Source: a bacterium
Lineage (GTDB): Bacteria; Patescibacteriota; Minisyncoccia; Phycocordibacterales; JAGLPS01
DNA: 64,000 bases
Direction: 5' to 3'
NCBI GenBank assembly: GCA_030690305.1
Contig: JAUYHB010000006.1
Coordinates: 5,668 to 69,667, forward strand
A program made the position numbers and the translations under genes. Each line of letters starts with the position of its first letter. The stretch's first letter is position 1. This document shows positions 9,801 to 58,309 of this stretch, one piece after another. Under the pieces are notes generated by a model. That model was given only the letters and a program-made list of their open reading frames with translations. It searched no databases and was not told the DNA's origin.

Positions 9801-10437
9801 TAGTTGGGTATTTGATGCTTGAGCGGTGATACTCGATCTCATTGAGCACGCGTCCGGGCACAAGCGACTCGATATCGCGCTTCGTCGCGAGGGCGAGCTC
9901 TTTGAGAGCCGTTTTACTCTTCTCGTCCTGGAGAGTTTTAACCTTGGCCTTAAATTCAGATTCCAAGTCCTTGAGTACCCGGGTTTTCTCCGTTTCAGAA
10001 ACGCTTGTGACGATATAGCCGGCGAAGTAAACAACCTTCTCAAGATCCGACACTGGAACACCCATGACAAGCGAGATGCGCGAAGGCACGTTTTTCAAAA
10101 ACCAGATGTGGGCGACGGGGCTCGCAAGCTCGATATGACCCATGCGCTCTCGGCGGACGATGGAGCGCGTGATTTCAACACCACACTTCTCACAGACAAT
10201 GCCCTTATACCGGATGCCTCGGTACTTGCCGCAATAACATTCGAAGTCCTTGTCCGGTCCGAAAATCTTTTCGTCGAAAAGGCCGTTGCGCTCGCTTCTT
10301 TGAGTGCGGTAATTGATAGTTTCCGGCTTGGTAACCTCGCCATAAGACCACTCCTTGATGCGTTCAGGTGAAGCGAGTTTAATTGAGATGGCATCGAACT
10401 GGTCAAGTGCCCCTGATTTCATTTTGTAATCATTCAT
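6778..10437 (-). CDS. rpoC: DNA-directed RNA polymerase subunit beta'.
   Basis: It carries NADFDGDQMAVHVPLS, Zn-binding cysteines at the N-terminus, and trigger-loop and bridge-helix regions. It follows rpoB on the same strand. Confidence 0.95.
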   Translation of the reverse strand: MNDYKMKSGALDQFDAISIKLASPERIKEWSYGEVTKPETINYRTQRSERNGLFDEKIFGPDKDFECYCGKYRGIRYKGIVCEKCGVEITRSIVRRERMGHIELASPVAHIWFLKNVPSRISLVMGVPVSDLEKVVYFAGYIVTSVSETEKTRVLKDLESEFKAKVKTLQDEKSKTALKELALATKRDIESLVPGRVLNEIEYHRSSIKYPTIFEAGIGAEAIYNILKGIDLNKLLKELEAEVGNVPATEISRLNKRLSTIQWMINAGSRPEWMFLTRVPVIPPAIRPMVPLDGGRYATSDVNDLYRRVINRNNRLKKLKEIDAPDVILRNEKRILQEAVDALIDNTIRHSSVSGNQSQRRPLKSLSDNLKGKRGLFRQNLLGKRVDYSGRSVIVVGPELKLHQCGLPKHMALELFKPFIISELLKRELSYNIPGARRLIEDAIPEVWAILEEVIRGKYVLLNRAPTLHRLGIQAFQPVLIEGNAIQLHPLVCTAFNADFDGDQMAVHVPLSEEAQAEARLIMAADRNILKPGNGEPVVSAKLLDIVLGTYWMTRILPGEKGEGRYYANPNSAITAYEFGVVSLRAKISVMPTDTERYKVFGGKMFETTVGRLLFNGILPRDYPFLNHEMSRKKMSELVDDLIERYGIENIPPIMDRIKTFGFRYATHSGVTWGLEDVKIPRGKKAVIDKGRVAVNEVLVQYREGLLSEQERIAKSVEIWQGVKAEVEKLIPGTLGIRDSVYDMTYSEARGSLGNLNQMAGMKGIIASISGESLEFPILSCYKEGLTPLEYFITTHGSRKGLTDTALNTAKAGYLTRRLFDVAQDEIVTEEDCNTKGGTTIHKKTASGIEIPISKNIKGRFLASDLLDNEGKVFFKRGHLITKMDAETIDKASVESAHVRSPLACQSVHGLCVKCYGVDLGNNKTIELGEAVGTVAAQAIGEPGTQLTMRTFHAGGTASASGDITAGLPRVEEIFEKRKPKSPAVISHLDGIVTEIKVVGHDKLITVTPELGESKDGKKLDNEYTVPVSRTSLVRIGQSVKKGDVLTEGSADLDELFRYAGREKTEKYIIHEVSKLYELQGAAVSHKHIELIVRQMFSRRKIKDAGDSRFTRGDVIEVSEFIETNNQLKEKGLKEATSDAIVMGITEVSLSRASFLSAASFQHTPRVLIQAAIRGAEDNLVGLKENVIIGRLIPAGTGFKNGYKEKLICEAMSTQSKNG

Positions 10438-13400
10438 TGTTGTTTTGAGAATTATCCATCTTCTTCCCACCCTCTTTTGATGACTTCAAATCCACGTCAA
10501 GCGAGAGACCGCGCAAGTTGTTGAGAAGAACGTTGAAGGAGGCTGGCAGGTGCGGATCGGGAATCTTCTCACCTTTGACGATAGCGTCGAAAGCGGCCGA
10601 GCGACCGAGAATATCATCAGATTTTATCGTCAGCATTTCTCGCAAAGTGTAACCGGCGCCATGGCCAAGAAGCGCCCAAACTTCCATTTCTCCGAAACGC
10701 TGGCCTCCGCTTTGTGCTTTTCCTCCCAGAGGCTGCTGGGTAATAAGGGAGTACGGACCGATTGCGCGCATGTGGATTTTGTCTTCAACCATGTGATGAA
10801 GTTTCATAATGTACATAAAGCCCACGGCGATATCCTGACCGAATGTTTCTCCCGTGCGTCCGTCAAAAAGAGGCATTTTGCCGTTTTCTTTAAAGCCTGC
10901 GGTTTTCAATTCTTCCTTAATTTCTTCCGATGTGGCGCCTGCAAACGGAGGAACGATGGCTTGATAGTTGAGCGTATGCGCCGCAAGACCCAAATGCATT
11001 TCAAGGATCTGTCCAAGGTTCATACGGGAAGGCACACCAAGAGGAGTGAGAATAACGTCAATCGGAGTACCGTCGGCCATGTATGGCATATCTTCTTCGG
11101 GAAGAATTTTTGAAATAACGCCTTTATTTCCGTGTCGGCCGGCAAGCTTGTCACCGACTGACACGTTTCTCAACTGTGCGACTTCAATGTGAATTCTTTT
11201 TATGATTCCCGATTCAAGCTTGTCTCCTTTTTCGCGGGAGAACACTTGCACTTTGATAATGCGGCCGCGCTTCCCTCCTTCCACTCTCATTGAGGTATCT
11301 TTAACATCGCGCGCCTTTTCACCAAACAGGGACCGTAGGAGTCTTTCTTCGGGAGTAAGCTGGGTTTCGCCTTTTGGCGTAATCTTTCCCACCAATATGT
11401 CACCGGGATGGACTTCCGCTCCAACGCGGATAATGCCGTCCTCGGCAAGGTTTTTAAGTTTTGATTCACCGACGTTGGGGATATCGCATGTCGTTACTTC
11501 GGGACCGAGTTTCGTATCGCGAACGTTAACGACAAATTCTTCTATATGAATGCTTGAAAATTTACTGTTGCGGACAAGTCGTTCGGAAATAATAATGGCA
11601 TCTTCGTAGTTTGCCCCTGACCAGGACATGAAAGCGACAAGTACATTCTGGCCGAGTGCCAATTGTCCGCGGTCGGACGTCGATGTGTCCGCCAAAATAT
11701 CACCCTTTTTCACCTTATCTCCCAAATTAACGTTTGGTCGCTGGTGGAATGCGGTAAAACCGTTTGTTCGGGCGAAGTTGATGAGTGTGTATTCGGTTTC
11801 TTTTCCTTTGCTGTTTTTTACGGAAATTTTTCTTCCGCCTACATGAGTTACGGTTCCGTCTTCCTTGGCGATAATCACGCGGCCAGTATCAAGAACAGCT
11901 TTTCCTTCAACTCCAGTGGCAACAAGCGGAGCCTCCGGAACGATACAAGGCGTTGCTTGCTTCTGCATGTTTGAACCCATGAGAGAACGGTTTGCGTCGT
12001 CGTGTTCAAGAAAAGGAATACAGGATGTCGCCACGGAAAACGCTTGGTTTGTCGCGACGTCAATAAATGCCACCTTATCTTTTGAGGCAAGGTCAGGCTG
12101 ACCGTTGAGGCGCACTTCAATTTGGTCTTCAGTAAGATTACCGTTCTCGTCGTGTTTTGCCGCGGCATGGGCAATCGGATATTGTTCTTCCTCCAAAGCG
12201 TTAAGATAAACGATTTCTCCGGTAATTTTCCCGTCTTTAACTCTCACATACGGAGTTTCAATCATTCCGAATTCGTTCAAGCGTGCGTACATTGAGAGAC
12301 GCAAAATAAGACCGATGTTCGGACCTTCAGGGGTATGAATCGGACACAAGCGGCCATAGTGGGACGGATGAACGTCGCGCACCTCAAAGCCGGCGCGGGC
12401 ACGGGACAGTCCTCCGGGGCCCAGGGCCGAAAGCGTGCGAAGATGTTCGATTTCGGTAAGCGCGTTTTCCTGTTGCATGAATTGCGACAGCTGGTTCGTA
12501 GTGAAAAATTCTTTGATGCGCGCCTGCAAAGGTTTGGGACTGATGAATTGTATCGGCAACGTTACATCGGTTTCAATCGTCGACATTCTGTTTTGAATGT
12601 TTCGCTTTATCTGCGACATACCGACGCGGATTTTTTGCTGTAACAATTCTCCGACGTATCGGACACGGCGGGAACCGAGGTGGTCAATATCGTCTTCCGT
12701 CGCCTCGGGAGTGTTGTTGAGGGTAATGATTTGCCTGAGAATAGTCGTGATATCGTCGAGAGAAACCGTACGTCTGTTGAGTTGCTTTTCTTCAAGGCCT
12801 TTATTAAAACGCTGGTTGAAACGGAAGCGTCCGACGCGGGAAAGGTCGTAGCGCTCGTCGTTGAATATCGAATCAATGAATTCCTTGGCATTTTCGGCAG
12901 TGGCCAGGTCTCCGTCACGCAAACGCTTGTGCATTTCAATATAGGCGTCGTTTGCCGTCTTTGCGTGGTCTTTGGCGAGAGTTTTTTCAAGCACTTCTCT
13001 TTGCTCGTCGTTTTCGGCAAGAGCAAGAATATCTTTATCCGTAGCGGCACCCAATATACGCAAGAACGAGGTGGCCGGAAATTTTCTTTTTCTGTCGATG
13101 CGGATGTGCAAGACGCCGTCGGCATCGGATTCGATTTCAATCCACGCTCCACGGGAAGGGATGACTTTTGCACCAAATAATTTTCGTCCGCGAAGTTCTG
13201 CAGCGGTGAAAAAGACACCGAAAGAACGCGCGAGCTGGGGAACAATAACGCGTTCAATACCTGTGATGACAAACGTCCCGTGAGAAGTCATCAACGGAAA
13301 ATCCGCCATAAAAATTTCCTGCTCGCGGGTAGAACCGAGGATTTTGTTCGTGAGTTTTACTCTCGCCTTGAGGGGGGCTTCATAGGAGAGTTTCTGGTCT

Positions 13401-45557: not shown

Positions 45558-47642
45558 TTAAATGTCGAGGTTGGCTTTATGGGCGTTGGATTGGATAAAT
45601 GATTTTCGGGAAGCCACATCGTCGCCCATGAGAATTTCAAATATTTTATCCGCCTCGCGGGCATCGTCAATTGTCACCTGTTTTAAAATGCGTCTTTTGG
45701 GATCCATAGTCGTTTCCCACAATTCTTCGGCGTTCATTTCTCCGAGACCTTTGTAGCGCTGAATATTTACTTTAGGAACTCTTTTTGCCTTCTCCTCTTC
45801 AACTTCCACAGTTTCGGGCTCGGCGCCTTCTTCCTGCACCTCTTCAACTTCTTCCGCTTCTTTGGCGTCTACACCAAGGTCTTTGAGAGACTTGAGTTTT
45901 TCATTATCGGAATATGCATAGCGGACTTCTTTGCCTTTGGAAATCTTGTACAACGGGGGCTGGGCAATATAAATAAATCCGCCGTCAAGAAGACCTCGCA
46001 GAAAACGATAAAACATAGTAAGAAGAAGCGTTCTGATATGCGCACCGTCAACATCGGCATCTGTTGCGATAATGACTTTGTGGTAACGAAGATTGGTAAT
46101 ATCAAAACTGTCACCGATTGACGCTCCGAGAGCAACGACGAGATTTTTGATTTGTTCGGATGCAAGCGCTTTGTCCAAACGGGCACGTTCAATATTTAAA
46201 ATTTTTCCACGAAGCGGCAAAATTGCCTGAATACGGCGGTCACGTCCGCTTTTCGCCGTTCCTCCGGCGGAATCCCCCTCGACAATAAACAGTTCGGATT
46301 CTTCCGCGGACTTGCTTTGGCAGTCGGCAAGTTTCCCTGGAAGCATCATTCCCTCAAGCGCTCCCTTGCGCAAAACGCTGTCCTTGGCCGCTTTTGCGGC
46401 TTTTCGCGCCTTAAGAGCAAGAAGCACTTTGTTTATGATTGAACGTGCTTCGTCCGGATGTTCTTCCAAAAAAGCGGTAAATCCTTCAGAAAAAACGCTT
46501 TCAACCATTCCGCGCGCTTCAAGACTCCCCAACTTTGCTTTTGTCTGTCCTTCGAACTGGATTTCACGCAGTTTAACCGCCACAACCGCGGTAAGGCCTT
46601 CCAAGACGTCTTCTCCTGTCAGGCTTTCTTCTTTTTCTTTAATCAGATTATTGTTGCGGGCGTAGTTGTTTATGGTGCGGGTAAGAGCGGTTTTAAAACC
46701 GGTAACGTGCATACCGCCTTCCGAGTTATAAATGTTGTTTGCGAACGGTAATACACGGGAAGAAATATCATCCACATACTGAAGAGCGATTTCAACACTT
46801 TCGTATTCATTCGTATGTTTTTCGGTATAAAAAATATTTTTGTGAATCGGTTTGAAAAATTTGTTGTAAAAACTTACAAGCGACACAAGGCCGCCTTCAA
46901 AACAGAAGGTGTACGAAGGGGCTTCAAGATGAATGTCTTCAAGGAAAAATATTTCAGAATCGTCAATTTCTTTTTCCCCACGGGCATCAATAACAACAAT
47001 ACGCAGACCACGCACAAGATACGCCTGCTGACGCATATGGTCCATAACTTTATTCAAATCAAAAGAAATTTCTTTGAAAATTTCTTCATCGGGTTCAAAG
47101 GTGACGATAGTTCCCGTCATTTTTGATGAACCGATTTTTTTGACCGCGTGCTTTTTCTTTCCTTTAGCATATTCCTGAACATATTGCCCTCCGTCACGAT
47201 GCACCGAAACTTTCATGTGTATAGACAAGGCGTTGACTACCGAACCCCCGACACCGTGAAGACCTCCGGAAACTTTGTATCCTTCCCCGCCGAATTTTCC
47301 TCCGGCGTGCAACGTGGTCATTATTGTTTCAAGCGCGGAGACTTTCGTTTGTTTGTGAACGTCAACCGGAATCCCGCGGCCATTATCCGCTACGCGTACG
47401 CGATTCCCGGACAATAACGCCACTTCAATACGATTGGAAAAACCGCCCATCGCTTCATCCCGCGAGTTATCAAAAATTTCCCAAATAAGGTGGTGAAGCC
47501 CCTCGGAACTTGTGGTCCCGATATACATTCCCGGACGTCTTCTTACAGGCTCAAGACCCTCCAGAACGGTAATATCCTGGGCGCTGTAACTTCCCTTTTT
47601 GGAAGCTGGTTTTTCCTTTTTTTCCTCCTCTTTTTTCGGCAT
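45558..47642 (-). CDS. gyrB: DNA gyrase subunit B.
   Basis: It has a GHKL ATPase N-terminus (VLEGLEPVRRRPGMYIG), a TOPRIM domain (EGDSAGG) and a C-terminal tail. Confidence 0.93.
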   Translation of the reverse strand: MPKKEEEKKEKPASKKGSYSAQDITVLEGLEPVRRRPGMYIGTTSSEGLHHLIWEIFDNSRDEAMGGFSNRIEVALLSGNRVRVADNGRGIPVDVHKQTKVSALETIMTTLHAGGKFGGEGYKVSGGLHGVGGSVVNALSIHMKVSVHRDGGQYVQEYAKGKKKHAVKKIGSSKMTGTIVTFEPDEEIFKEISFDLNKVMDHMRQQAYLVRGLRIVVIDARGEKEIDDSEIFFLEDIHLEAPSYTFCFEGGLVSLVSFYNKFFKPIHKNIFYTEKHTNEYESVEIALQYVDDISSRVLPFANNIYNSEGGMHVTGFKTALTRTINNYARNNNLIKEKEESLTGEDVLEGLTAVVAVKLREIQFEGQTKAKLGSLEARGMVESVFSEGFTAFLEEHPDEARSIINKVLLALKARKAAKAAKDSVLRKGALEGMMLPGKLADCQSKSAEESELFIVEGDSAGGTAKSGRDRRIQAILPLRGKILNIERARLDKALASEQIKNLVVALGASIGDSFDITNLRYHKVIIATDADVDGAHIRTLLLTMFYRFLRGLLDGGFIYIAQPPLYKISKGKEVRYAYSDNEKLKSLKDLGVDAKEAEEVEEVQEEGAEPETVEVEEEKAKRVPKVNIQRYKGLGEMNAEELWETTMDPKRRILKQVTIDDAREADKIFEILMGDDVASRKSFIQSNAHKANLDI

Positions 47643-47846
47643 AAAGAAAAATACTTTGTTGCTGTCTCTCGCTCGGAAAAGGGAGAAAATGCTCTCCCTT
47701 TTCACTCGCTCGTTGAGCAGTAAAAACAAAAAAACGAACTGATTTCGTACCCTCTATTATACCAAAAAACGGCCTCAAAATAAAGCTGTTTTGGACATTT
47801 GAACATGTTTTTCCCCTCCCTCGGGAAAAACGATAAAAACTGAAAA

Positions 47847-48371
47847 TTACCCTAAGAATATGGCTAATTTACGCCATTTTTTTAGAAAGTCTGGCAAAGT
47901 CATCTTTTGAAATGAGGAACCTCCGTCTTTTGTGTCAGGGTCATGAAAAATAATATGGGTAGGGCTTGCTGTTTCCCCCTCAAAACCCACAGCTAAAATG
48001 GCATGGAAAGAATCATTCGGCTTGGTAACTGACAGAAGAACCGGACGGTTTTCAGCAAGTTTTTTTATTATTTTACTAAGCCCAACTGTTTCCAGTCTCT
48101 CTTTAAACAAATCACTCGCGGAACGGAACTCCTCTTTGTATGAGGGAACTCCATGATTGTGGGCGAGAAAAACAAGTGAGTCGTGAGACCACCCATGTGG
48201 AGTATAACCACTTATGGAAACTCCTTCTTCAATAAGAGAATCAATTGAAGGAATATCCGAGGATAGAAAATCCAGACCCATCTTCAGACATGTAACGGCA
48301 CAGGCCTTTGAACGCCATGACTCATCGGTCACATTGTCGTACTGAGAATAAAAAGGTGCATCAAGAGTCAT
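47847..48371 (-). CDS. Peptidase C39-like (papain-fold cysteine peptidase, BtrH/DUF3335-like) protein.
   Basis: It has APFYSQYDN...SKACAVTCLKM (catalytic Cys context) and HAILAVGFEG (His). Confidence 0.5.
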   Translation of the reverse strand: MTLDAPFYSQYDNVTDESWRSKACAVTCLKMGLDFLSSDIPSIDSLIEEGVSISGYTPHGWSHDSLVFLAHNHGVPSYKEEFRSASDLFKERLETVGLSKIIKKLAENRPVLLSVTKPNDSFHAILAVGFEGETASPTHIIFHDPDTKDGGSSFQKMTLPDFLKKWRKLAIFLG

Positions 48372-48375
48372 CGTA

Positions 48376-50739
48376 TTATCTTACTTTCCAATTTTTTTCT
48401 TTTTCCAGAGCATCGGACACGCGTTTCATAACGACATTAATTTCTTCGTCGGAAAGAGTCTTTTCAAAGGATTGGAATACGAGGCGAAAGGCATATGAAG
48501 TTTGTTTGCCACCTTCGGCATTTGTTTTTTCGAACACGTCAAACAGCCTGCTTTGGACAAGAAGGTCTCCCGCCTCTTTTGCAATAACGGAAAGAACAGT
48601 GTACGAGGTAATGCCGGATGGAACAAAAAGCGAAATGTCGCGAAGCATGAATGGATATGCAGAAATTTTCTCTACTTGTTTGGGGTGCTCATTGATACTT
48701 TCTTTTTCATAGGCTTTCGGTTCGGGAAGGGAGTCTATGATGTCGCCAAGGTCGATTTCATAACAAGTTTCGGAAACGGGAGGCAACTGCACGCCAAGAT
48801 GTTTCCCAAGATTTTCAACTGTCTCTGCCAGTTCCTCTATTTCCTTTTTCTCTTTTGATTTTTGTCCTTTTAACGCAAGAGTGAAAGAAAGTATTTCTCC
48901 TTTCATGGAAAAAACCGTCCCGATTTCAAAAATTTTAACCGCATCCAATCCAAGTAGGTCCGCATTTCGAAGATTTTCTTCAAGCGCTTTTTTGACCCCT
49001 CCTTGCAAATTTGGTCTCAAAAAATTTTTGTCCTCGGCAAGCGGATTGGCAATTTCAATGTCTCCGTGAGAAATAAGTGAATATGTGTACGTTTCGGAAA
49101 AGCCTTTCTCTATAAGGAAATGCCGAATGACACTCGTGTAATAAAAACGTTTGTGCACGGGCGGTTTGGAGGCCTTAGGAGGCATCACTGAGGCAATTTT
49201 GGAATATCCATAGACCCGTCCGATTTCCTCAGCAAGGTCTTCCTTGATACGGACATCAAGGCGTGTAAAAGGCACAGTAACAACAAAGCGTTCTTCCTCG
49301 GAGGGTATGTGGCGGCGGTAGCCGGCAATGTGCTTAAATCTGTCGCTTTCTTTTATTTTTTCAATCACAACCTTTCCCGCTTTCTGCGTAGCGTGGGCGA
49401 CTTCTCCGTCGCCAATATATACTCCACAATGGTCAACTCCTTCAGGGACCTTTGTCCCTTTTAAAAATTCTTTTGTTTCGTAGTGAACGCCATGCTCTCC
49501 AACTCCGGTATTTGCGTAAATAACATCCCCCGGTTTGGTTTCTTTCTCGGAAACCGGAGAACCCCACACATATTGGTCAACGGAAATACGTGGAATGCCT
49601 ACACCGGCGCTAACGTAAAGATATGCAACAAAAGAGGAACAATCAAAGGCCTGTCCACCTTCCCTGCCAACACTTGCTCCGCGTTTGTATGGGGTACCGA
49701 TATACTTTTTCGCGTCTTCAACTATTTTTTTTCTCGGAGAAACTATTTCATAAGAAAAACCCGCGCGGGTTAAGATATTTTCGATGTCTTTTTTCTGAAG
49801 TGCAATGCCCAGTATTTGTTCAATTTCATTTTTTGAAATTCCCACTTTGTATTGAACCTCATGATTCGGATATATATCAACAACGCCCTCCACGCTTGTT
49901 TTGTCTCCATGGGCTATGTCGAGAATGAGGGTGACAACCGATTGCATCGCTTCCATAGCGAGAGTGGCGGAAATTTCGTTTTCAAAACGAAGTGACGCAT
50001 CGGTACGCAGGTTGAGATCTTTGGAAAATTTTCTTACAAGAATCGGGTCGAAATTTGCGGCTTCAAGAACAATATTTTTTGTCTGAGAAGAAATTTCTGC
50101 TGCCCTGCCGCCCTTAATGCCCGCTATGCCGAGAATTGCACCTGAGTTTCCGTCCCGTATCAACGGAGTGCCCTGGGGAAGGTCGTATGTTTTTTCATCA
50201 AGTGCTTCCATCTTCTCTCCTTTCTTGGAGATATCAAGACTGATAGAAATTTTATCCGCCTTCTTTTCGAATTTGTCGGCATCAAAAGCATGAAGGGGCT
50301 GACCCAAAGAAAACATAACGTAGTTTGTTGCGTCAACAATATTATTGATTGAACGCTGGCCGATTGCTTCAAGACGCTTTTTAAGCCACTCGGGGCTTTG
50401 ACCCACTTTTATATCCCTGACCAAAGCTCCGACATATCGTCTGCAAAACGGATGCGCGAGAGAAATGGAAAGAGTTTTCGAGATGGGATATTTTTCAGTT
50501 TTTTCTTCTTTTTTAAGTGGAAGGTTCAGAAGCAGCGCCGCCTCCCGCGCAATTCCGCGATGTGAAAGACAGTCGTGATTCCTGTTTGGCAGAACGGCAA
50601 GATCAAAAATCACATCCTCCCCTTTCTCCTCAACCGATTCAACTTCAAAAGCCGACATTTCAATCGCTTCCGTGAACACGTCGGGCTTGGGAAGACTCCC
50701 CAAAATATAATCTGCAAGCCAGTGGTAACTTATTTTCAT
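48376..50739 (-). CDS. pheT: Phenylalanyl-tRNA synthetase beta subunit carrying an internal NlpC/P60 peptidase domain.
   Basis: It has a PheT N-terminus (MKISYHWLADY), B3/4 and B5 domains, a catalytic-like domain and a C-terminal FDX-ACB domain. Between B5 and the next domain lies a roughly 150 aa insert, YIGTPYKRGAS...GQAFDCSSFVAYLY...GDVIY...DHCGVYIGDGEVAHA, that matches the NlpC/P60 Cys-His fold. Confidence 0.85.
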   Translation of the reverse strand: MKISYHWLADYILGSLPKPDVFTEAIEMSAFEVESVEEKGEDVIFDLAVLPNRNHDCLSHRGIAREAALLLNLPLKKEEKTEKYPISKTLSISLAHPFCRRYVGALVRDIKVGQSPEWLKKRLEAIGQRSINNIVDATNYVMFSLGQPLHAFDADKFEKKADKISISLDISKKGEKMEALDEKTYDLPQGTPLIRDGNSGAILGIAGIKGGRAAEISSQTKNIVLEAANFDPILVRKFSKDLNLRTDASLRFENEISATLAMEAMQSVVTLILDIAHGDKTSVEGVVDIYPNHEVQYKVGISKNEIEQILGIALQKKDIENILTRAGFSYEIVSPRKKIVEDAKKYIGTPYKRGASVGREGGQAFDCSSFVAYLYVSAGVGIPRISVDQYVWGSPVSEKETKPGDVIYANTGVGEHGVHYETKEFLKGTKVPEGVDHCGVYIGDGEVAHATQKAGKVVIEKIKESDRFKHIAGYRRHIPSEEERFVVTVPFTRLDVRIKEDLAEEIGRVYGYSKIASVMPPKASKPPVHKRFYYTSVIRHFLIEKGFSETYTYSLISHGDIEIANPLAEDKNFLRPNLQGGVKKALEENLRNADLLGLDAVKIFEIGTVFSMKGEILSFTLALKGQKSKEKKEIEELAETVENLGKHLGVQLPPVSETCYEIDLGDIIDSLPEPKAYEKESINEHPKQVEKISAYPFMLRDISLFVPSGITSYTVLSVIAKEAGDLLVQSRLFDVFEKTNAEGGKQTSYAFRLVFQSFEKTLSDEEINVVMKRVSDALEKEKNWKVR

Positions 50740-50741
50740 AA

Positions 50742-51446
50742 TTAAAACTGATTGATAAGGCGCATGTCTCCGTTATACAAAAGCCGCACATCGGGAATAC
50801 CGTATTTAAGCATTGCAAGACGGTCAAGCCCGCCCCCAAATGCAAAACCACTCCATTGCCCGGGGTGAATACCCGCCGCTTGAAGTGCGTGTGGGTGAAC
50901 CATGCCCGCGCCCATGACTTCAAGCCATTTACCTTGAAACTCAATATCTATTTCAACTCCCGGTTCAACAAACGGAAAATAACTCGGACGGAAACGGATT
51001 ATTATATCTTTTGAAAGAATTTTTCTGAAATACGCTTCAAGAATTGCCTTGAGATGTGCAAGAGAAACGTTCCGGTCTATCATCAGGCCCTCAAGTTGGT
51101 AAAACTGCGATTCGTGGGTCGCATCCGTTGCCTCGTGACGGAAAACCTTTCCTGGTGAAATAATCCGCAACGGCGGCGTATGCGTTTCCATGTAGCGAAT
51201 CTGCACCGGAGAAGTGTGCGTGCGGAGCAATTTTCTGTCTTCAAGCGGCTTAAGCCAGAACGTGTCCCACATGTCACGGGAAGGATGGTGGGCGGGAATG
51301 TTAAGTGCGTCAAAGTTGTAACGCTCGGTTTCTATCTCCGGACCGGTCGCTACGGCAAAACCAAGCTCGTTGAAAATCGCATTGGATTCTTCAATAAGAA
51401 TGCTGATAGGATGCAGATGTCCTTTGCCCGGTTCCATACCCGCCAT
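50742..51446 (-). CDS. pheS: Phenylalanyl-tRNA synthetase alpha subunit, catalytic core only.
   Basis: It has class II motifs (FRPSYFPFVEPG..., GAGMVHP) and no N-terminal coiled coil. Confidence 0.9.
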   Translation of the reverse strand: MAGMEPGKGHLHPISILIEESNAIFNELGFAVATGPEIETERYNFDALNIPAHHPSRDMWDTFWLKPLEDRKLLRTHTSPVQIRYMETHTPPLRIISPGKVFRHEATDATHESQFYQLEGLMIDRNVSLAHLKAILEAYFRKILSKDIIIRFRPSYFPFVEPGVEIDIEFQGKWLEVMGAGMVHPHALQAAGIHPGQWSGFAFGGGLDRLAMLKYGIPDVRLLYNGDMRLINQF

Positions 51447-51681: not shown

Positions 51682-52923
51682 ATGAATGACGCACAGACGG
51701 TGGTAATTTATATGCTTCTTTTTGTTTCCCTCTATTTTGAGGTTTTTTTGCTTGTAACGTATCTCGAAAAAAGAATTCAGATTAAATACGAGACGTCGCG
51801 TAAAAACACTTTTTTCCCTTCGGTTTCAATCATTGTTCCCTGTTTTAACGAGGAACACACCGTGGTAAAAACCATTCAATCACTTCTGCGTCTCGATTAT
51901 CCGGAAGAAAAAATTGAAATTATTGTCGTGAATGACGGAAGCCGCGATAAAACAGCGCAAATACTGAAGGAAAATTTTTCAACCGAAAAAAGAATCACCG
52001 TGCTCCATAAAGAAAATGGAGGAAAGTACACCGCCCTAAATTACGGCCTAACACATTCACACGGAGAATTTGTCGGTTGTCTGGATGCGGATTCTTTTGT
52101 TGAGCCGAGCACCCTTTCCAATATCATCTCGTATTTTGAAGATAAGACGATAATGTCGGTAGTTCCATCAATCATCGTTCACAGCCCGTCGACCGTCATC
52201 CAGTCGTTTCAGCAAGTCGAGTACCAATGGGGTATATTTTTGCGTAAAGTTCTTTCATATCTTGGAGCGTTATATGTTACTCCGGGTCCATTTTCTATTT
52301 TTCGCAGAGAAATATTCAATGTAATAGGAACATATACGGAAGGACACAAAACGGAAGACCTTGAGTTTGCTCTTCGTCTGCAAAAAAATCATTACAGAAT
52401 CGCAAATGCTCATAGTGCGTATGTTCATACTGTGGCTCCGAAAACGCTCAAGACCCTGTATGCCCAACGTCTCCGATGGACGTATGGATTTCTTAAAAAC
52501 GCTTTTGATTATCGGGAACTGTTCTTCAAGAAAGAATACGGTCACTTAGGGCTCTTTGTTCTTCCAATGGCAGCGGGAACTATTTTTACAACTCTGTATA
52601 CGGTAGGAAACGTCATTTTTGAAATGCTTATGAAGGGCGTTGAAAAGTGGGTTGAAATCGCCACGGTAGGAGTGGATATCTCCTGGAAAGGCTTTCATTT
52701 TGATTGGTTTTTTCTCAATACCGACGGGATTTTATTCCTCAGTACGATATTGTCGGTCATAACCGTATTGCTTATCCTTATTGGGAAAAAGCTTGCTGTT
52801 GGAAAGATGACTTTCTCAAGAGACCTTGTTTACTTTTTTCTCCTCTTCCCTTTTATTACACCTTTATGGCTTGGAACAGCGATTTACCGCGTCGCCTTTT
52901 CAAAAAAGGTAAGTTGGAGATAG
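51682..52923 (+). CDS. Processive family-2 glycosyltransferase, membrane-embedded (PgaC/IcaA/cellulose-synthase-like).
   Basis: It has an N-terminal TM, VSIIVPCFNEE, a DGS, a DAD and the QRLRW (QxxRW) motif, followed by C-terminal TM helices. Confidence 0.8.
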   Translation: MNDAQTVVIYMLLFVSLYFEVFLLVTYLEKRIQIKYETSRKNTFFPSVSIIVPCFNEEHTVVKTIQSLLRLDYPEEKIEIIVVNDGSRDKTAQILKENFSTEKRITVLHKENGGKYTALNYGLTHSHGEFVGCLDADSFVEPSTLSNIISYFEDKTIMSVVPSIIVHSPSTVIQSFQQVEYQWGIFLRKVLSYLGALYVTPGPFSIFRREIFNVIGTYTEGHKTEDLEFALRLQKNHYRIANAHSAYVHTVAPKTLKTLYAQRLRWTYGFLKNAFDYRELFFKKEYGHLGLFVLPMAAGTIFTTLYTVGNVIFEMLMKGVEKWVEIATVGVDISWKGFHFDWFFLNTDGILFLSTILSVITVLLILIGKKLAVGKMTFSRDLVYFFLLFPFITPLWLGTAIYRVAFSKKVSWR

Positions 52924-52927
52924 AATC

Positions 52928-53608
52928 ATGCGAGAAGGGATTGAAATAAAAAAATATTTCTTTGTGTTGCTTATAACCACGGCAATTTTTTTTACTGCTT
53001 TTTATATTTCAAACTACCTCAATGACAAGAAACTGACCGAACTGAAAACCATTGAAAACAGAATCGCCATAGATATTCTCTCCTCCGAAACTCAGTATTC
53101 ACTCCTTGCCGAGTCGTCATGTCAAAATATAGGAGCGTCTGTTCTTTCCGAGGAGCTTGGTCCTCTCGGGGAAAAACTGGCCTTCGCGGAAGAAAGCCGC
53201 GGGACAGATAATCCGGAAGTGATCGCTCTCAAAAAATCCTACTCTCTTCTTCTGATCAAAGACTACTTGCTCATGAACAAAATCAGCGAAAAATGTAAAC
53301 TTGACCCTGTTTTTATTCTTTATTTCTATTCAAACGAAGGCGATTGTCCGGACTGTGTACGGGAAGGATACGTGCTTACCCGTTTGCGGGAAAAATATCC
53401 GACCCTTCGTATTTACGCGTTTGACTACAATCTCCCTCTTTCAGCGGTAAAAACACTTGTTTCGATCAAACGTATTGGCAAGGACTTGCCTGCCCTTGTT
53501 ATCAACGATAAGGCCTATTATGGGCTCAGGAGTGTTGAAGAAATTGAAGCCATCATACCGGAAATCAAGGCGCTGGCGGAAACCGCCTCATCGACTCCGG
53601 GAAGATAG
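52928..53608 (+). CDS. Membrane-anchored thioredoxin-like CxxC protein.
   Basis: It has an N-terminal TM and a GDCPDC motif in a thioredoxin-fold context. It starts 5 nt after the GT2 stop. Confidence 0.5.
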   Translation: MREGIEIKKYFFVLLITTAIFFTAFYISNYLNDKKLTELKTIENRIAIDILSSETQYSLLAESSCQNIGASVLSEELGPLGEKLAFAEESRGTDNPEVIALKKSYSLLLIKDYLLMNKISEKCKLDPVFILYFYSNEGDCPDCVREGYVLTRLREKYPTLRIYAFDYNLPLSAVKTLVSIKRIGKDLPALVINDKAYYGLRSVEEIEAIIPEIKALAETASSTPGR

Positions 53609-53633
53609 CATTTTGACCGGTTCACTTTCAGTG

Positions 53634-53706
53634 AGCCGCCTCCCAGACTTGAACTGGGGACCTTCGCTTTACAAAAGCGTTGCTCTACCAACTGAGCTAA
53701 GGCGGC
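53634..53706 (-). tRNA. tRNA-Thr (anticodon UGU).
   Basis: The cloverleaf was folded by hand: acceptor GCCGCCT/AGGCGGC, D-arm GCTC-AGTTGGTA-GAGC, anticodon loop TT-TGT-AA, T-arm CCCAG-TTCAAGT-CTGGG, discriminator T. CCA is not encoded. Confidence 0.85.
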
Positions 53707-56968: not shown

Positions 56969-58309
56969 CTAAAGATTAAGCGGGTCTATCATGGTTTCCT
57001 GGATATTTTGGGCCTTTTGCATAACACCGTCGCCATAAAAGGCGTTTTGAGGTTTGTTCCAGTTTCCGCCCGCATAATATTTGAGAGCGGCTCTGCGCTC
57101 GGCGGTATACCCGCCTTCGGAAGCCCCCAAATCGGAAAGAAAGATTGCCGATGCCATAAAAGCATCACGGGGATCCCATGGATTAGGCACGCTTTTGCCA
57201 ATGGCAGCCGCTATGCGTGATTTATACATACTCCACGTAGAAGGAATAAACTGTGCCGGACCCATTGCTCCTCCCCACCCTCCTTGCCACGGACAAGATA
57301 AAGGCATCGAATCAGGGTCCAAACCGAGTTCTGCGGTAATTTGAAGAAACTTCGTTTCATCGTCGCGGTTTGATTTATCATTCGGTCCCGGCATAATCGC
57401 CCGCCAGTTTTTTTCAGGCGGGTCGCCGGGACGGTTGCACGTTCCGACATTTTGACCAAGGTTCGATTCCTGCGTCAGGATGGCAAGAAGAAAAGCAGGA
57501 CGGACACCGGTTTTTGCATATGCTTCGTTCGCATAATTGAGAGCTGTCCCGAACGGAATGGCTGCGGTATCACGCAGACTGAACAAGGCGGAACGGATTT
57601 GGGCGGCCCTTTTTTCACGCTCTTTAAGAACCGTTTCATAGGCCTTTTCCTGGTTTTTACTGATTGAGAGGAGGGCTTGTTTTTCGTTCTCTTTTTTCTC
57701 CACCAAGCGTTTGTCTGCTTCTATACCGGCTCTAATGTCTGTCTCTTTATCACGCCGGCTGCTTAATGTGTTTTTTTCGGTTTCCTGGATTATTTTTGTT
57801 GTCCGCAATTCCTCAAATCGTTCACTGAGAGACCGTTTAACCGAAGAATAGGCGTCGAGGTCTGAAAAAAAATCTGAGAAATTTTCTCCCGCAAGTATCA
57901 CCTCTGCAAGGGAAAAAGAATCTATTTCGTTTGTTTTTCTGACAAGTTCGGCAAGAGACTCTCGTCCTTGTTCAAGATGCTCTTCAAGCTCTTTTATCGT
58001 TGCTGTTTTGACAGTGATGTCTTTGCCTAATTGCTGAATAAGAATATTCTGCGCTCGTATGTTCAATTGCGCCTTTGTGATTTCGGCATTAAGAATGGCA
58101 ACATCACGTTCCAAAGAAACAGACTCTTTTTGTTTTTCACTCAAAATCCCCTGTTGTGCTTTGATCTCCGCCTCAAGAGAGGCCAGTTCCGCTCGCAACT
58201 TCGCCTCTTGGGCGGCAACCGCTTCGTCTACGGAAGTCTGCGCGGATGCCGGAAAAACAATTGCCAGGGAAAGAAACAGTGAAATAGAAATTAAACGAAA
58301 AAAATACAT
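56969..58309 (-). CDS. Secreted coiled-coil protein with a C-terminal lytic transglycosylase (MltB/Slt-like) domain.
   Basis: It has a signal peptide, a roughly 230 aa heptad-repeat region, and a C-terminal LLAILTQESNLGQ (catalytic Glu) plus GAMGPAQFIPSTW. Confidence 0.6.
   Translation of the reverse strand: MYFFRLISISLFLSLAIVFPASAQTSVDEAVAAQEAKLRAELASLEAEIKAQQGILSEKQKESVSLERDVAILNAEITKAQLNIRAQNILIQQLGKDITVKTATIKELEEHLEQGRESLAELVRKTNEIDSFSLAEVILAGENFSDFFSDLDAYSSVKRSLSERFEELRTTKIIQETEKNTLSSRRDKETDIRAGIEADKRLVEKKENEKQALLSISKNQEKAYETVLKEREKRAAQIRSALFSLRDTAAIPFGTALNYANEAYAKTGVRPAFLLAILTQESNLGQNVGTCNRPGDPPEKNWRAIMPGPNDKSNRDDETKFLQITAELGLDPDSMPLSCPWQGGWGGAMGPAQFIPSTWSMYKSRIAAAIGKSVPNPWDPRDAFMASAIFLSDLGASEGGYTAERRAALKYYAGGNWNKPQNAFYGDGVMQKAQNIQETMIDPLNL

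What the first reader, a model, noticed from the sequence alone, without database searches (positions are those of the whole stretch)
47847..50739. PheT carries an embedded NlpC/P60 papain-like peptidase domain, and a C39-like cysteine peptidase gene sits immediately downstream.
The PheT ORF has the normal N-terminal tRNA-binding, B3/4, B5, catalytic-like and FDX-ACB modules. Between B5 (…ILTRAGFSYEIV) and the conserved VPFTRLDVRIKEDLAEEIGRVYGY block lies a roughly 150 aa segment with the hallmark NlpC/P60 layout: Y-x-GTPY-x-x-G, a catalytic Cys in GQAFDCSSFVAYLY, GDVIY, and a His in DHCGVYIGDGEVAHA. A cell-wall-amidase-type domain inside a cytoplasmic aminoacyl-tRNA synthetase is highly unusual. 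The next gene encodes another papain-fold, C39-like peptidase with a Cys/His pair. So two cysteine-peptidase folds sit side by side.
Basis: seen in the sequence. Interest (0 to 1): 0.65.

Follow-up and report, generated by a model that had tools for sequence, protein, structure and literature searches.

The report
Cell-wall-type peptidase nested inside PheT
In a large group of ultra-small Patescibacteria, the beta subunit of phenylalanyl-tRNA synthetase carries a complete, apparently active cell-wall-type cysteine peptidase inserted in one of its small domains; that piece survives as its own gene when the rest of the subunit is lost, usually next to a second cysteine peptidase gene.

Summary
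PheT (48376-50739, minus strand, 787 aa) passes the bacterial pheT equivalog model. It contains a full-length NlpC/P60 (C40) domain (aa 335-478; Pfam 57 bits against a cutoff of 23) nested in the beta-hairpin of the B5 domain. A 174-aa Peptidase_C39_2 gene starts 4 nt after the pheT stop.

It is not an artefact. All 120 best homologs (44-52% identical, independent assemblies, Paceibacteria-type Patescibacteria) share the architecture. The Cys367-His437-His449 triad is 100/100/97% conserved, and the insert is as conserved as the editing and anticodon-binding domains.

In related lineages PheRS became a PheS-core + FDX-ACB fusion and PheT was lost, except for a ~200-aa stand-alone "B5 remnant + NlpC/P60" gene. 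That gene keeps the triad but has lost B5's alpha-subunit/Mg-binding motif. C39_2 follows pheT in 9 of 10 loci and follows the stand-alone module in 4 of 7 lineages.

Best reading: an autonomous, cytoplasmic, catalytically competent peptidase module, probably acting on peptidoglycan-type gamma-glutamyl peptides, often together with C39_2. It is hosted by PheT rather than serving aminoacylation. The substrate is inferred, not shown.

I found no publication describing this architecture.

The parts
50742..51446 (-). pheS: short PheRS alpha subunit (234 aa), catalytic core only, no N-terminal coiled coil. Its stop codon lies 2 nt before the pheT start.
   Evidence: Pfam tRNA-synt_2d E 1e-90; TIGR00468 289 bits against a cutoff of 237; spacing.
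48376..50739 (-). pheT: PheRS beta subunit (787 aa) with domain order B1, B3/4, B5 (containing NlpC/P60), catalytic-like module, FDX-ACB. The B2 domain is absent.
49912..50445 (-). B3/4 editing domain (aa 99-276). Residues aligned to E. coli editing-site H265/G318/E334/A356 are H150, G210, E226 and A248.
   Evidence: Pfam B3_4 E 1.4e-57; alignment to 7n8y_B; H150, G210 and E226 are invariant in 36 homologs.
49738..49854 (-). B5 domain, N-terminal half (aa 296-334): strand 298-302, helices 303-310 and 316-325, strand 329-333.
   Evidence: Pfam B5 in two stretches; model secondary structure.
49306..49737 (-). Nested NlpC/P60 (C40) cysteine peptidase domain (aa 335-478). It includes a lineage-variable hairpin (about aa 412-433) between GDVIY and the catalytic His.
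49639..49641 (-). Codon of the catalytic Cys367 (FDCSS).
   Evidence: 100% conserved in 120 homologs; kept in all stand-alone modules; coordinates.
49429..49431 (-). Codon of the catalytic His437 (VDHCG).
   Evidence: 100% conserved; coordinates.
49393..49395 (-). Codon of the third triad residue, His449 (VAHA).
   Evidence: 97% conserved; His in stand-alone modules, or Gln in one; coordinates.
49204..49305 (-). B5 domain, C-terminal half (aa 479-512): strand 484-488 and helix 499-510. It carries D495, D501, E504 and E505, which align to positions 454/460/463/464 of solved PheT (the Mg2+ ligands shared with the alpha subunit, from my own knowledge of UniProt annotation).
   Evidence: Pfam B5 479-512; alignment to 4p71; 95-100% conserved in embedded forms; lost in stand-alone forms.
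48790..49191 (-). Catalytic-like module (B6/B7), aa 517-650.
   Evidence: Pfam PF17759 E 6.7e-12.
48379..48663 (-). FDX-ACB anticodon-binding domain (B8), aa 693-787.
   Evidence: Pfam PF03147 E 3e-22.
47847..48371 (-). Stand-alone C39-like cysteine peptidase (174 aa, no signal peptide). Putative triad Cys24 (48300-48302), His123 (48003-48005), Asp144 (47940-47942). It starts 4 nt after the pheT stop.
45558..47729 (-). gyrB, the conserved downstream neighbour. It is separated from C39_2 by about 200 nt containing a TATAAT-like box, so it is probably a separate transcription unit. This marks the operon boundary.

Best explanation
This is the genuine housekeeping PheRS beta subunit of a Paceibacteria-type Patescibacterium. 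A complete NlpC/P60 (MEROPS C40) domain was inserted long ago into the beta-hairpin of its small B5 domain and has since been inherited vertically. The insert is a catalytically competent Cys-His-His amidase that works as an autonomous module. PheT supplies a fold-compatible docking site (B5) and constitutive co-expression, not a role in aminoacylation or editing. The module is cytoplasmic: there is no signal peptide in PheT, in the stand-alone versions or in the partner. Its most likely substrates are gamma-D-glutamyl-type peptide bonds of peptidoglycan-derived peptides or precursors (salvage or turnover). It often acts together with the co-transcribed C39-like cysteine peptidase, which would cut a second bond. 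Shown: the nested architecture, the fold, triad conservation, purifying selection, independent survival of the module when PheT is lost, and frequent linkage to C39_2. Inferred: enzymatic activity, cytoplasmic location, substrate class, and cooperation with C39_2.
Against: No activity or substrate was tested. The peptidoglycan-peptide assignment rests only on family resemblance. Most NlpC/P60 enzymes are extracytoplasmic, so a cytoplasmic role is atypical. The pheT-C39_2 adjacency lies within a broadly syntenic housekeeping block (RF1-S2-EF-Ts...GT2-pheS-pheT-C39_2-gyrB-thrS-dnaE), so part of the linkage may be historical. C39_2 is absent next to the module in L006, L015, L016 and L093. Some monomeric-type PheRS lineages have lost the module altogether (L090, L091, L092), so it is dispensable. 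Several stand-alone genes overlap the stop of the PheS fusion gene, which leaves room for a PheRS-linked role. I could not check whole genomes for a second PheT.
Confidence: 0.5

Rival explanations
1. tRNA-linked enzyme. The NlpC/P60 thiol attacks the aminoacyl ester of (mis)charged tRNAPhe. That would give either an extra or replacement editing activity, or an acyl-enzyme intermediate used to transfer Phe to another acceptor, as LRAT-type members of the superfamily do.
For: It is nested in PheRS beta in over 100 clusters. In lineages that lost the B3/4 editing domain the module is often kept, and its gene overlaps the stop codon of the monomeric-type PheS-FDX-ACB gene (L012, L015, L016, L021). 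From my own knowledge, the superfamily includes ester-cleaving acyltransferases.
Against: The canonical editing residues are intact in embedded forms. Stand-alone modules have lost the B5 acidic motif that contacts the alpha subunit. L008 and L009 modules are not near any PheRS gene. In L093 and the P0216 contig the module is transcribed divergently from the PheS fusion. L090-L092 lack it although they also lack B3/4. All close relatives are peptide amidases. I know of no precedent for a papain-fold aa-tRNA deacylase.
Confidence: 0.1
2. General protein or peptide processing pair. NlpC/P60 and C39_2 are cytoplasmic proteases or isopeptidases acting on proteins or ribosomal peptides (for example double-glycine leader removal or de-conjugation), unrelated to cell-wall peptides.
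Against: No precursor peptide, ABC transporter or ubiquitin-like gene is seen in the conserved neighbourhood. The NlpC/P60 domain is closest to DL-endopeptidases.
Confidence: 0.15
3. Extracellular or lytic use. The peptidase acts on a cell wall (the organism's own wall at division, or the host's) after non-classical release or cell lysis, with PheRS as an accidental carrier.
For: The family norm is extracytoplasmic peptidoglycan hydrolysis. Both families occur in phage lysins. These organisms are thought to be episymbionts (my own knowledge).
Against: There is no signal peptide, lipobox or wall-binding domain in PheT, the stand-alone modules or C39_2. PheRS is an essential cytosolic enzyme. 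A separate secreted-type lytic transglycosylase exists in the window.
Confidence: 0.12
4. Non-catalytic structural or binding domain, for example compensating for the missing B2 domain or sensing peptides.
For: B2 is missing in the whole clade. Inactive NlpC/P60 domains are known (RipD model in NCBIfam).
Against: The full triad and the surrounding motifs are essentially invariant. They persist in stand-alone forms that no longer belong to PheT.
Confidence: 0.08
5. Assembly or gene-calling artefact (chimeric join).
For: None beyond the unusual architecture.
Against: The identical protein is found in independent assemblies. The same architecture is seen in 120 of the 120 best homologs at 44-52% identity. 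There is one continuous ORF, a confident model and no compositional break.
Confidence: 0.01

Closest known systems
NlpC/P60 (C40) peptidoglycan DL-endopeptidases: C. difficile Acd24020 (7cfl), T. thermophilus 4xcm, B. subtilis LytE/CwlO, E. faecium SagA, E. coli MepS, B. cereus YkfC (3h41)
   Different: It is nested inside a cytoplasmic tRNA synthetase domain rather than being a secreted or lipoprotein module with SH3b, LysM or coiled-coil partners. It carries a lineage-variable hairpin of 0, ~20 or ~35 aa before the catalytic His. It forms its own clade, separated by an identity gap (>=43% against <=36%) from generic family members. Activity is untested.
Canonical bacterial PheRS beta subunit (E. 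coli 3pco, P. aeruginosa 4p71, T. thermophilus 1pys/2iy5)
   Same: Passes the pheT equivalog model. It has B1, B3/4 with intact editing residues, B5 with the Mg/alpha-binding acidic motif, the catalytic-like module and FDX-ACB, and it sits in a pheS-pheT operon.
   Different: It lacks B2 (the OB-fold tRNA_bind domain). The B5 hairpin is replaced by a 144-aa peptidase. The partner PheS lacks the N-terminal coiled coil.
C39 double-glycine leader peptidase domains (PCAT1, LahT, ComA) and Pfam Peptidase_C39_2, including B. anthracis 3erv
   Different: It is a stand-alone 174-aa cytoplasmic protein, not fused to or next to an ABC transporter, and no leader-peptide substrate gene is nearby. It evolves fast (only 10 word-based homologs).
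CtdA, a stand-alone relative of the PheT B3/4 domain (PMC12268091, PMC12449066)
   Different: CtdA derives from the editing domain and acts on aminoacyl-tRNA. Here the surviving piece is B5 plus a foreign peptidase, and it has lost the PheRS-contact motif.
Mitochondrial-type monomeric PheRS (human 3cmq; TIGR00469), for the relatives that carry the stand-alone module
   Same: PheS catalytic core fused to the FDX-ACB anticodon-binding domain, about 380 aa, with no beta subunit.
   Different: It is bacterial. It scores just below both the pheS_mito cutoff (241 against 258) and the SrmL cutoff (250 against 300). It sits in the ancestral pheS locus.

Membership tests
NlpC/P60 (Pfam PF00877, MEROPS C40) | Profile match above the curated threshold over the whole domain | tested here: met
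   57.2 bits against a cutoff of 23, profile positions 1-104 of 105.
NlpC/P60 (Pfam PF00877, MEROPS C40) | Catalytic Cys at a helix N-terminus, plus His on a strand, plus a third polar residue (His/Asn/Gln/Glu) | tested here: met
   C367 (helix 367-377), H437 and H449 on strands; 100/100/97% conserved in 120 homologs.
NlpC/P60 (Pfam PF00877, MEROPS C40) | Papain-like alpha+beta fold superposable on solved members | tested here: met
NlpC/P60 (Pfam PF00877, MEROPS C40) | Hydrolysis of gamma-D-Glu-diamino acid (or related) bonds of peptidoglycan peptides | not testable with these tools
   Needs an enzyme assay.
NlpC/P60 (Pfam PF00877, MEROPS C40) | Usual extracytoplasmic targeting (signal peptide or lipobox, wall-binding modules) | tested here: not met
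   The domain is internal to PheT. Stand-alone forms start directly with the B5 strand (MxYKIGxS). No targeting sequence or wall-binding domain is present. This is typical of the family but not strictly defining.
Bacterial PheRS beta subunit (TIGR00472 pheT_bact) | Equivalog model score above cutoff | tested here: met
   430.2 bits against 402.65.
Bacterial PheRS beta subunit (TIGR00472 pheT_bact) | Full domain set B1-B2-B3/4-B5-B6/7-B8 | tested here: not met
   B2 (tRNA_bind) is absent: there is no Pfam hit, and residue 42 aligns to residue 154 of 4p71/3pco. All other domains are present. Loss of B2 does not remove it from the family (the equivalog is still passed).
Bacterial PheRS beta subunit (TIGR00472 pheT_bact) | Editing-site residues of B3/4 (E. 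coli H265, G318, E334, A356; my own knowledge of the literature) | tested here: met
   They align to H150, G210, E226 and A248. H150, G210 and E226 are invariant in 36 homologs.
Bacterial PheRS beta subunit (TIGR00472 pheT_bact) | Operon with pheS, and B5 acidic residues that bind Mg2+ with the alpha subunit (my own knowledge of UniProt annotation) | tested here: met
   pheS ends 2 nt upstream. D495/D501/E504/E505 align to 454/460/463/464 of 4p71 and are 95-100% conserved. Mg binding itself was not tested.
Peptidase_C39_2 (PF13529), downstream gene | Profile match above cutoff and a conserved Cys/His(/Asp) triad | tested here: met
   37 bits against 24. C24 nearly invariant, H123 invariant, D144 about 90%.
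Peptidase_C39_2 (PF13529), downstream gene | C39-type papain fold | tested here: met
Peptidase C39 proper (PF03412; bacteriocin-processing domain of ABC transporters) | Fusion to, or association with, an ABC exporter and a double-glycine leader substrate | tested here: not met
   It is a stand-alone 174-aa protein. No ABC exporter or precursor gene is in the conserved neighbourhood. Cleavage specificity is not testable here.
Known anti-phage defence systems (PADLOC) | Match of either peptidase to a defence-system model | tested here: not met
   No hits for the insert, a stand-alone module or C39_2.

The most novel reading that the evidence does not exclude
The nested papain-fold domain is functionally coupled to PheRS. 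Its thiol would capture the aminoacyl group from (mis)charged tRNAPhe, either as a new kind of cis/trans editing activity or as a Phe-transferase to a non-ribosomal acceptor. The stand-alone B5-NlpC/P60 proteins next to the editing-less monomeric PheRS would be the trans-acting version. That would be the first papain-fold aminoacyl-tRNA-dependent enzyme.
Probability: 0.08. Interest if true: 0.9.

Novelty: new variant of a known kind. Interest (0 to 1): 0.62.

Why it matters
Bacterial aminoacyl-tRNA synthetases rarely acquire foreign catalytic domains. A conserved and apparently active cell-wall-type cysteine peptidase nested inside PheRS beta is an unreported architecture, as far as the searchable literature shows.

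Evolution has already done the key deletion experiment. When these bacteria collapsed (alpha-beta)2 PheRS into a mitochondrial-like single-chain enzyme, the only part of PheT that several lineages kept was the peptidase with its B5 socket. This marks the module as an independently selected function in organisms with minimal genomes, where every retained gene is informative about lifestyle, for example salvage of peptidoglycan peptides from a host.

It also gives a clean system for studying how domains are nested and later released, and documents a bacterial transition to monomeric PheRS without editing.

There is a practical annotation hazard too. These PheT proteins are named 'beta subunit-related protein' or even 'C40 family peptidase' in public records.

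Tried and rejected
1. Assembly chimera: rejected.
2. Replacement of a decayed editing site by the peptidase: rejected, because the B3/4 editing residues are intact.
3. Defence-system or phage origin: there are no PADLOC hits, and PHROG hits are only generic tail-lysin NlpC/P60 domains.
4. Short ~200-aa hits as mere gene fragments: rejected for L008, L009, L012, L015, L016, L021, L093 and the P0252 contigs. In these the ORFs are bounded by other genes, with no room for the rest of PheT. A few others (P0132, P0166, P0209) may still be fragments.
6. The afdb50 fold library was unavailable.
7. dN/dS on the stand-alone genes: synonymous sites are saturated (dS >2 or undefined). Only the qualitative conclusion of purifying selection is possible.
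8. The 157-aa ORF overlapping a C39_2 gene in L092 has Cys...His motifs in NlpC/P60 order, but there is no detectable homology (Pfam nothing; hhalign probability 1.9%). It is left unexplained.
9. Literature searches for NlpC/P60 with PheT, PheRS or CPR, for SrmL, and for bacterial monomeric PheRS found no description of this architecture. The library is limited to open-access papers.
Full report
**1. What is in the window**

On the minus strand lie three tightly packed genes:
- pheS: 50742-51446, 234 aa.
- pheT: 48376-50739, 787 aa.
- A 174-aa ORF: 47847-48371.

The pheS stop is 2 nt from the pheT start, and the pheT stop is 4 nt from the next start. About 200 nt with a TATAAT-like box then precede gyrB. 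The three genes therefore form one operon.

PheT passes NCBI's bacterial pheT equivalog model (430.2 bits against a cutoff of 402.65). Pfam finds the following:
- B3_4 at residues 99-276.
- B5 in two pieces.
- The catalytic-like module at 517-650.
- FDX-ACB at 693-787.
- Between the two B5 pieces, a full-length NLPC_P60 match (348-475; E 1.8e-15; 57.2 bits against a cutoff of 23; profile positions 1-104 of 105).

The 174-aa ORF matches Peptidase_C39_2 (37 bits against a cutoff of 24).

**2.

Residue-level alignment to solved PheT chains shows that query residue 42 aligns to residue 154. So the B2 (OB-fold tRNA-binding) domain is missing rather than 'normal'. The alignment also shows that query residues 324-481 replace an ~11-residue hairpin (4p71 residues 430-440) inside B5.

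The AlphaFold model has mean pLDDT 88.6, and the insert blocks score about 89-96. It places the insert (helix 335-345 to strand 471-476) between B5 strands 329-333 and 484-488.

**3. Not an artefact, and under selection**

The identical protein occurs on three contigs, including an independent Logan assembly. There is no compositional break at the insert.

All 120 best homologs carry PF00877 together with the PheT domains. They are 44-52% identical and are named Paceibacterota, Zambryski-, Yonath- or Taylorbacteria, or Minisyncoccia.

An exhaustive search with the insert alone finds 91 representatives (50%-identity clusters) at E<=1e-30. Most are 770-810 aa with the match at about residues 330-480. 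In metagenome contigs there is a clean gap between PheT-type modules (43-56% identity) and generic NlpC/P60 proteins (<=36%).

Across the 120 homologs, Cys367 and His437 are invariant and His449 is 97% conserved. Y351, F365, D366, S368, G379, P383, D388 and D405 are also conserved.

Mean pairwise identity by domain is as follows:

| Domain | Mean pairwise identity |
|---|---|
| NlpC/P60 insert | 0.55 |
| B3/4 editing domain | 0.54 |
| FDX-ACB | 0.56 |
| Catalytic-like module | 0.38 |

**4. The editing site is intact**

The E. coli editing residues H265, G318, E334 and A356 are known to me from the literature. They align to H150, G210, E226 and A248 (the chain 7n8y_B carries Trp at position 318). 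H150, G210 and E226 are invariant in the clade. The peptidase is therefore not a substitute for a decayed editing domain.

**5. The natural deletion experiment**

Among the insert's best hits are complete ~200-aa proteins. They begin at the first B5 strand (MxYKIGxS), contain the NlpC/P60 domain, and stop about 25 residues after the second B5 strand. Their genomic contexts show that they are real genes:
- **L008:** divergent GT2 gene, then the module (219 aa), then C39_2, then gyrB. There is no pheS and no room for the rest of pheT.
- **L009:** a holB-like gene, then the module (199 aa), then an overlapping C39_2, in a different neighbourhood.
- **L021 and two JGI contigs:** a 382-383-aa gene combining the PheS core and FDX-ACB, then the module, then C39_2, then gyrB. 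This is the same RF1-S2-EF-Ts...GT2 block as in the window.
- **L015, L016, L093/L094:** PheS-FDX-ACB fusion, module, then gyrB, with no C39_2.

The PheS-FDX-ACB fusion is a large, well-conserved family in Parcubacteria/Paceibacterota (120 best hits at 68-100% identity). It has mitochondrial-type architecture but scores just below both the pheS_mito and SrmL cutoffs.

An alignment of stand-alone and embedded modules shows three things:
- All ten stand-alone sequences keep Cys and His. The third triad residue is His, or Gln in one of them.
- All have lost D501 and E504 and the GRxYGY end of B5. These align to the Mg2+ ligands shared with the alpha subunit (positions 460 and 463 in 4p71; the ligand role is my own knowledge of UniProt annotation).
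- Most have deleted about 20 residues of the B5 helices.

So the peptidase is preserved while the PheRS-specific surfaces decay.

In a neighbour-joining tree (no support values) all PheT-type modules form one clade. The stand-alone ones are scattered among embedded ones in at least six places, and the L008 module is sister to this window's insert. That suggests repeated, independent release.

Synonymous sites between stand-alone genes are saturated while the ORFs stay intact at 27-64% amino-acid identity. This is consistent with purifying selection but is not quantifiable.

The module is not indispensable. Three fusion-PheRS loci lack it (L090, L091, L092).

**6. The partner**

C39_2 lies immediately downstream of pheT in 9 of the 10 embedded loci with readable flanks: the window/L005, L001, L007, L011, L013, L014, L017, L019 and L020. 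It is absent in L006.

It also lies downstream of the stand-alone module in 4 of 7 lineages.

C39_2 has a conserved Cys24/His123/Asp144 triad plus invariant W61, H63, H73, E81 and W166, and it has no signal peptide. Its model (pLDDT 94) is closest to these structures:

In the literature, PF13529 is described as single-domain peptidases related to C39 (PMC10318531). It is also listed as a catalytic domain of lysins from phages of Gram-positive hosts (PMC8223927).

The whole region is syntenic in this clade, so adjacency alone overstates functional coupling. The L009 case, where the pair moved together to a different context, and the 4-nt gaps or overlaps argue for co-expression.

**7. Interpretation**

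Shown:
- A nested, independently folded NlpC/P60 domain in B5 of the genuine PheT.
- An ancient, vertically inherited, strongly conserved insert with an intact triad.
- Survival as a separate gene after PheT loss.
- Frequent operonic linkage with a C39-like peptidase.

Inferred:
- It is an active cytoplasmic amidase whose function does not depend on PheRS.
- By family resemblance, its substrates are gamma-D-glutamyl-type bonds in peptidoglycan-derived peptides or precursors.
- C39_2 possibly cuts a second bond.

I put about 0.9 on 'active and autonomous module', and about 0.35-0.4 on the peptidoglycan-peptide substrate. Overall confidence in the combined statement is about 0.5.

Rivals:
- A tRNA-linked activity, about 0.1. 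Its best support is the translational coupling of several stand-alone genes to the monomeric-type PheRS, which lacks the B3/4 editing domain.
- A general protein or peptide processing pair, about 0.15.
- Extracellular lytic use, about 0.12.
- A non-catalytic role, about 0.08.
- An artefact, about 0.01.

**8. Novelty**

No paper in the searchable library mentions NlpC/P60 together with PheT or PheRS, or describes the stand-alone module or the bacterial PheS-FDX-ACB enzyme in this context. The proteins exist in public databases under names such as 'phenylalanine--tRNA ligase beta subunit-related protein' or 'C40 family peptidase'.

Both domain families are well known. What is new is the nested architecture, its evolutionary behaviour and the implied cytoplasmic role. 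I therefore rate it 'new variant of a known kind'.

**9. Limits**

- No enzyme assay was possible.
- Only monomer models were made, and no coordinates were available to measure the orientation of the active site.
- Whole genomes were not searched for a second pheT.
- The tree has no support values.
- The literature library is open-access only.

Noticed in passing
L015:3760-4908, L016:2030-3310, L021:3761-4909, L090:5001-6149, L091:5001-6149, L092:5001-6140, L093:3794-4963: A large family of ~380-aa bacterial proteins fuses the PheS catalytic core to the FDX-ACB anticodon-binding domain of PheT (a mitochondrial-like single-chain PheRS without an editing domain). They occupy the ancestral pheS locus in many Parcubacteria/Paceibacterota. 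They score just below both the pheS_mito (241 against 258) and 'SrmL mystery ligase' (250 against 300) cutoffs. I found no paper on it.
   Followed up: partly
window 50742-51446 and 48376-50739: PheS is only 234 aa (no N-terminal coiled-coil arm) and PheT lacks the B2 OB-fold domain. Both are auxiliary tRNA-contacting parts of canonical bacterial PheRS. The same short lengths are seen in all relatives.
   Followed up: partly
L092:1800-2273 (next to C39_2 at 2273-2794): A 157-aa ORF overlaps the start of a C39_2 gene. It has 'GISCAAFVS ... KPGAVIIW ... HEHMGF ... AISND' motifs in NlpC/P60-like order but no detectable homology (Pfam none; hhalign probability 1.9%). It may be a very divergent papain-like partner, or unrelated.
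   Followed up: partly
L090:6157-6477: A 106-aa ORF of unknown family sits exactly where the stand-alone B5-NlpC/P60 gene sits in relatives (between the PheS-FDX-ACB fusion and gyrB). It has no similarity to the module.
   Followed up: partly
window 49438-49503 (PheT aa 412-433) and the aligned regions of L012, L013, L015, L016, L021: The segment between the GD(V/L)xF strand and the catalytic His of the NlpC/P60 domain varies in length between lineages: absent (L021, P0252), about 20 aa (most), or about 35 aa (L012, L013, L015, L016). There is no obvious correlation with the presence of C39_2.
   Followed up: partly
window 51682-52923 (+) and 52928-53608 (+): A GT2 / chitin-synthase-like glycosyltransferase (413 aa) and a 226-aa protein with no Pfam match are conserved next to pheS in nearly all related loci, either divergent or co-directional. 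Function unknown.
   Followed up: partly
L007:9764-10528 and 10434-11852: gyrB appears split into two overlapping ORFs (254 aa carrying the ATPase domain, and 472 aa) in this relative. This could be a frameshift, a sequencing error or a genuine split.
   Followed up: no
window 36251-37168 (-): A 305-aa protein combines a NusB domain (7-136) with a NUDIX hydrolase domain (169-276), which is an unusual fusion.
   Followed up: no
window 56969-58309 (-): A 446-aa protein has a C-terminal SLT_2 lytic transglycosylase domain, so the organism has conventional cell-wall remodelling enzymes encoded nearby.
   Followed up: no
window 53633-53706 (-): A tRNA-Thr(TGT) gene lies between the 226-aa gene and EF-Ts. 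It overlaps spurious long ORFs on both strands.
   Followed up: yes
one search hit list (P0018, P0021): Public annotation of these PheT proteins is inconsistent: 'beta subunit-related protein', 'hypothetical protein', and in one case 'C40 family peptidase' for the whole 794-aa protein. One record is assigned to candidate division KSB1, which is probably a binning error.
   Followed up: no
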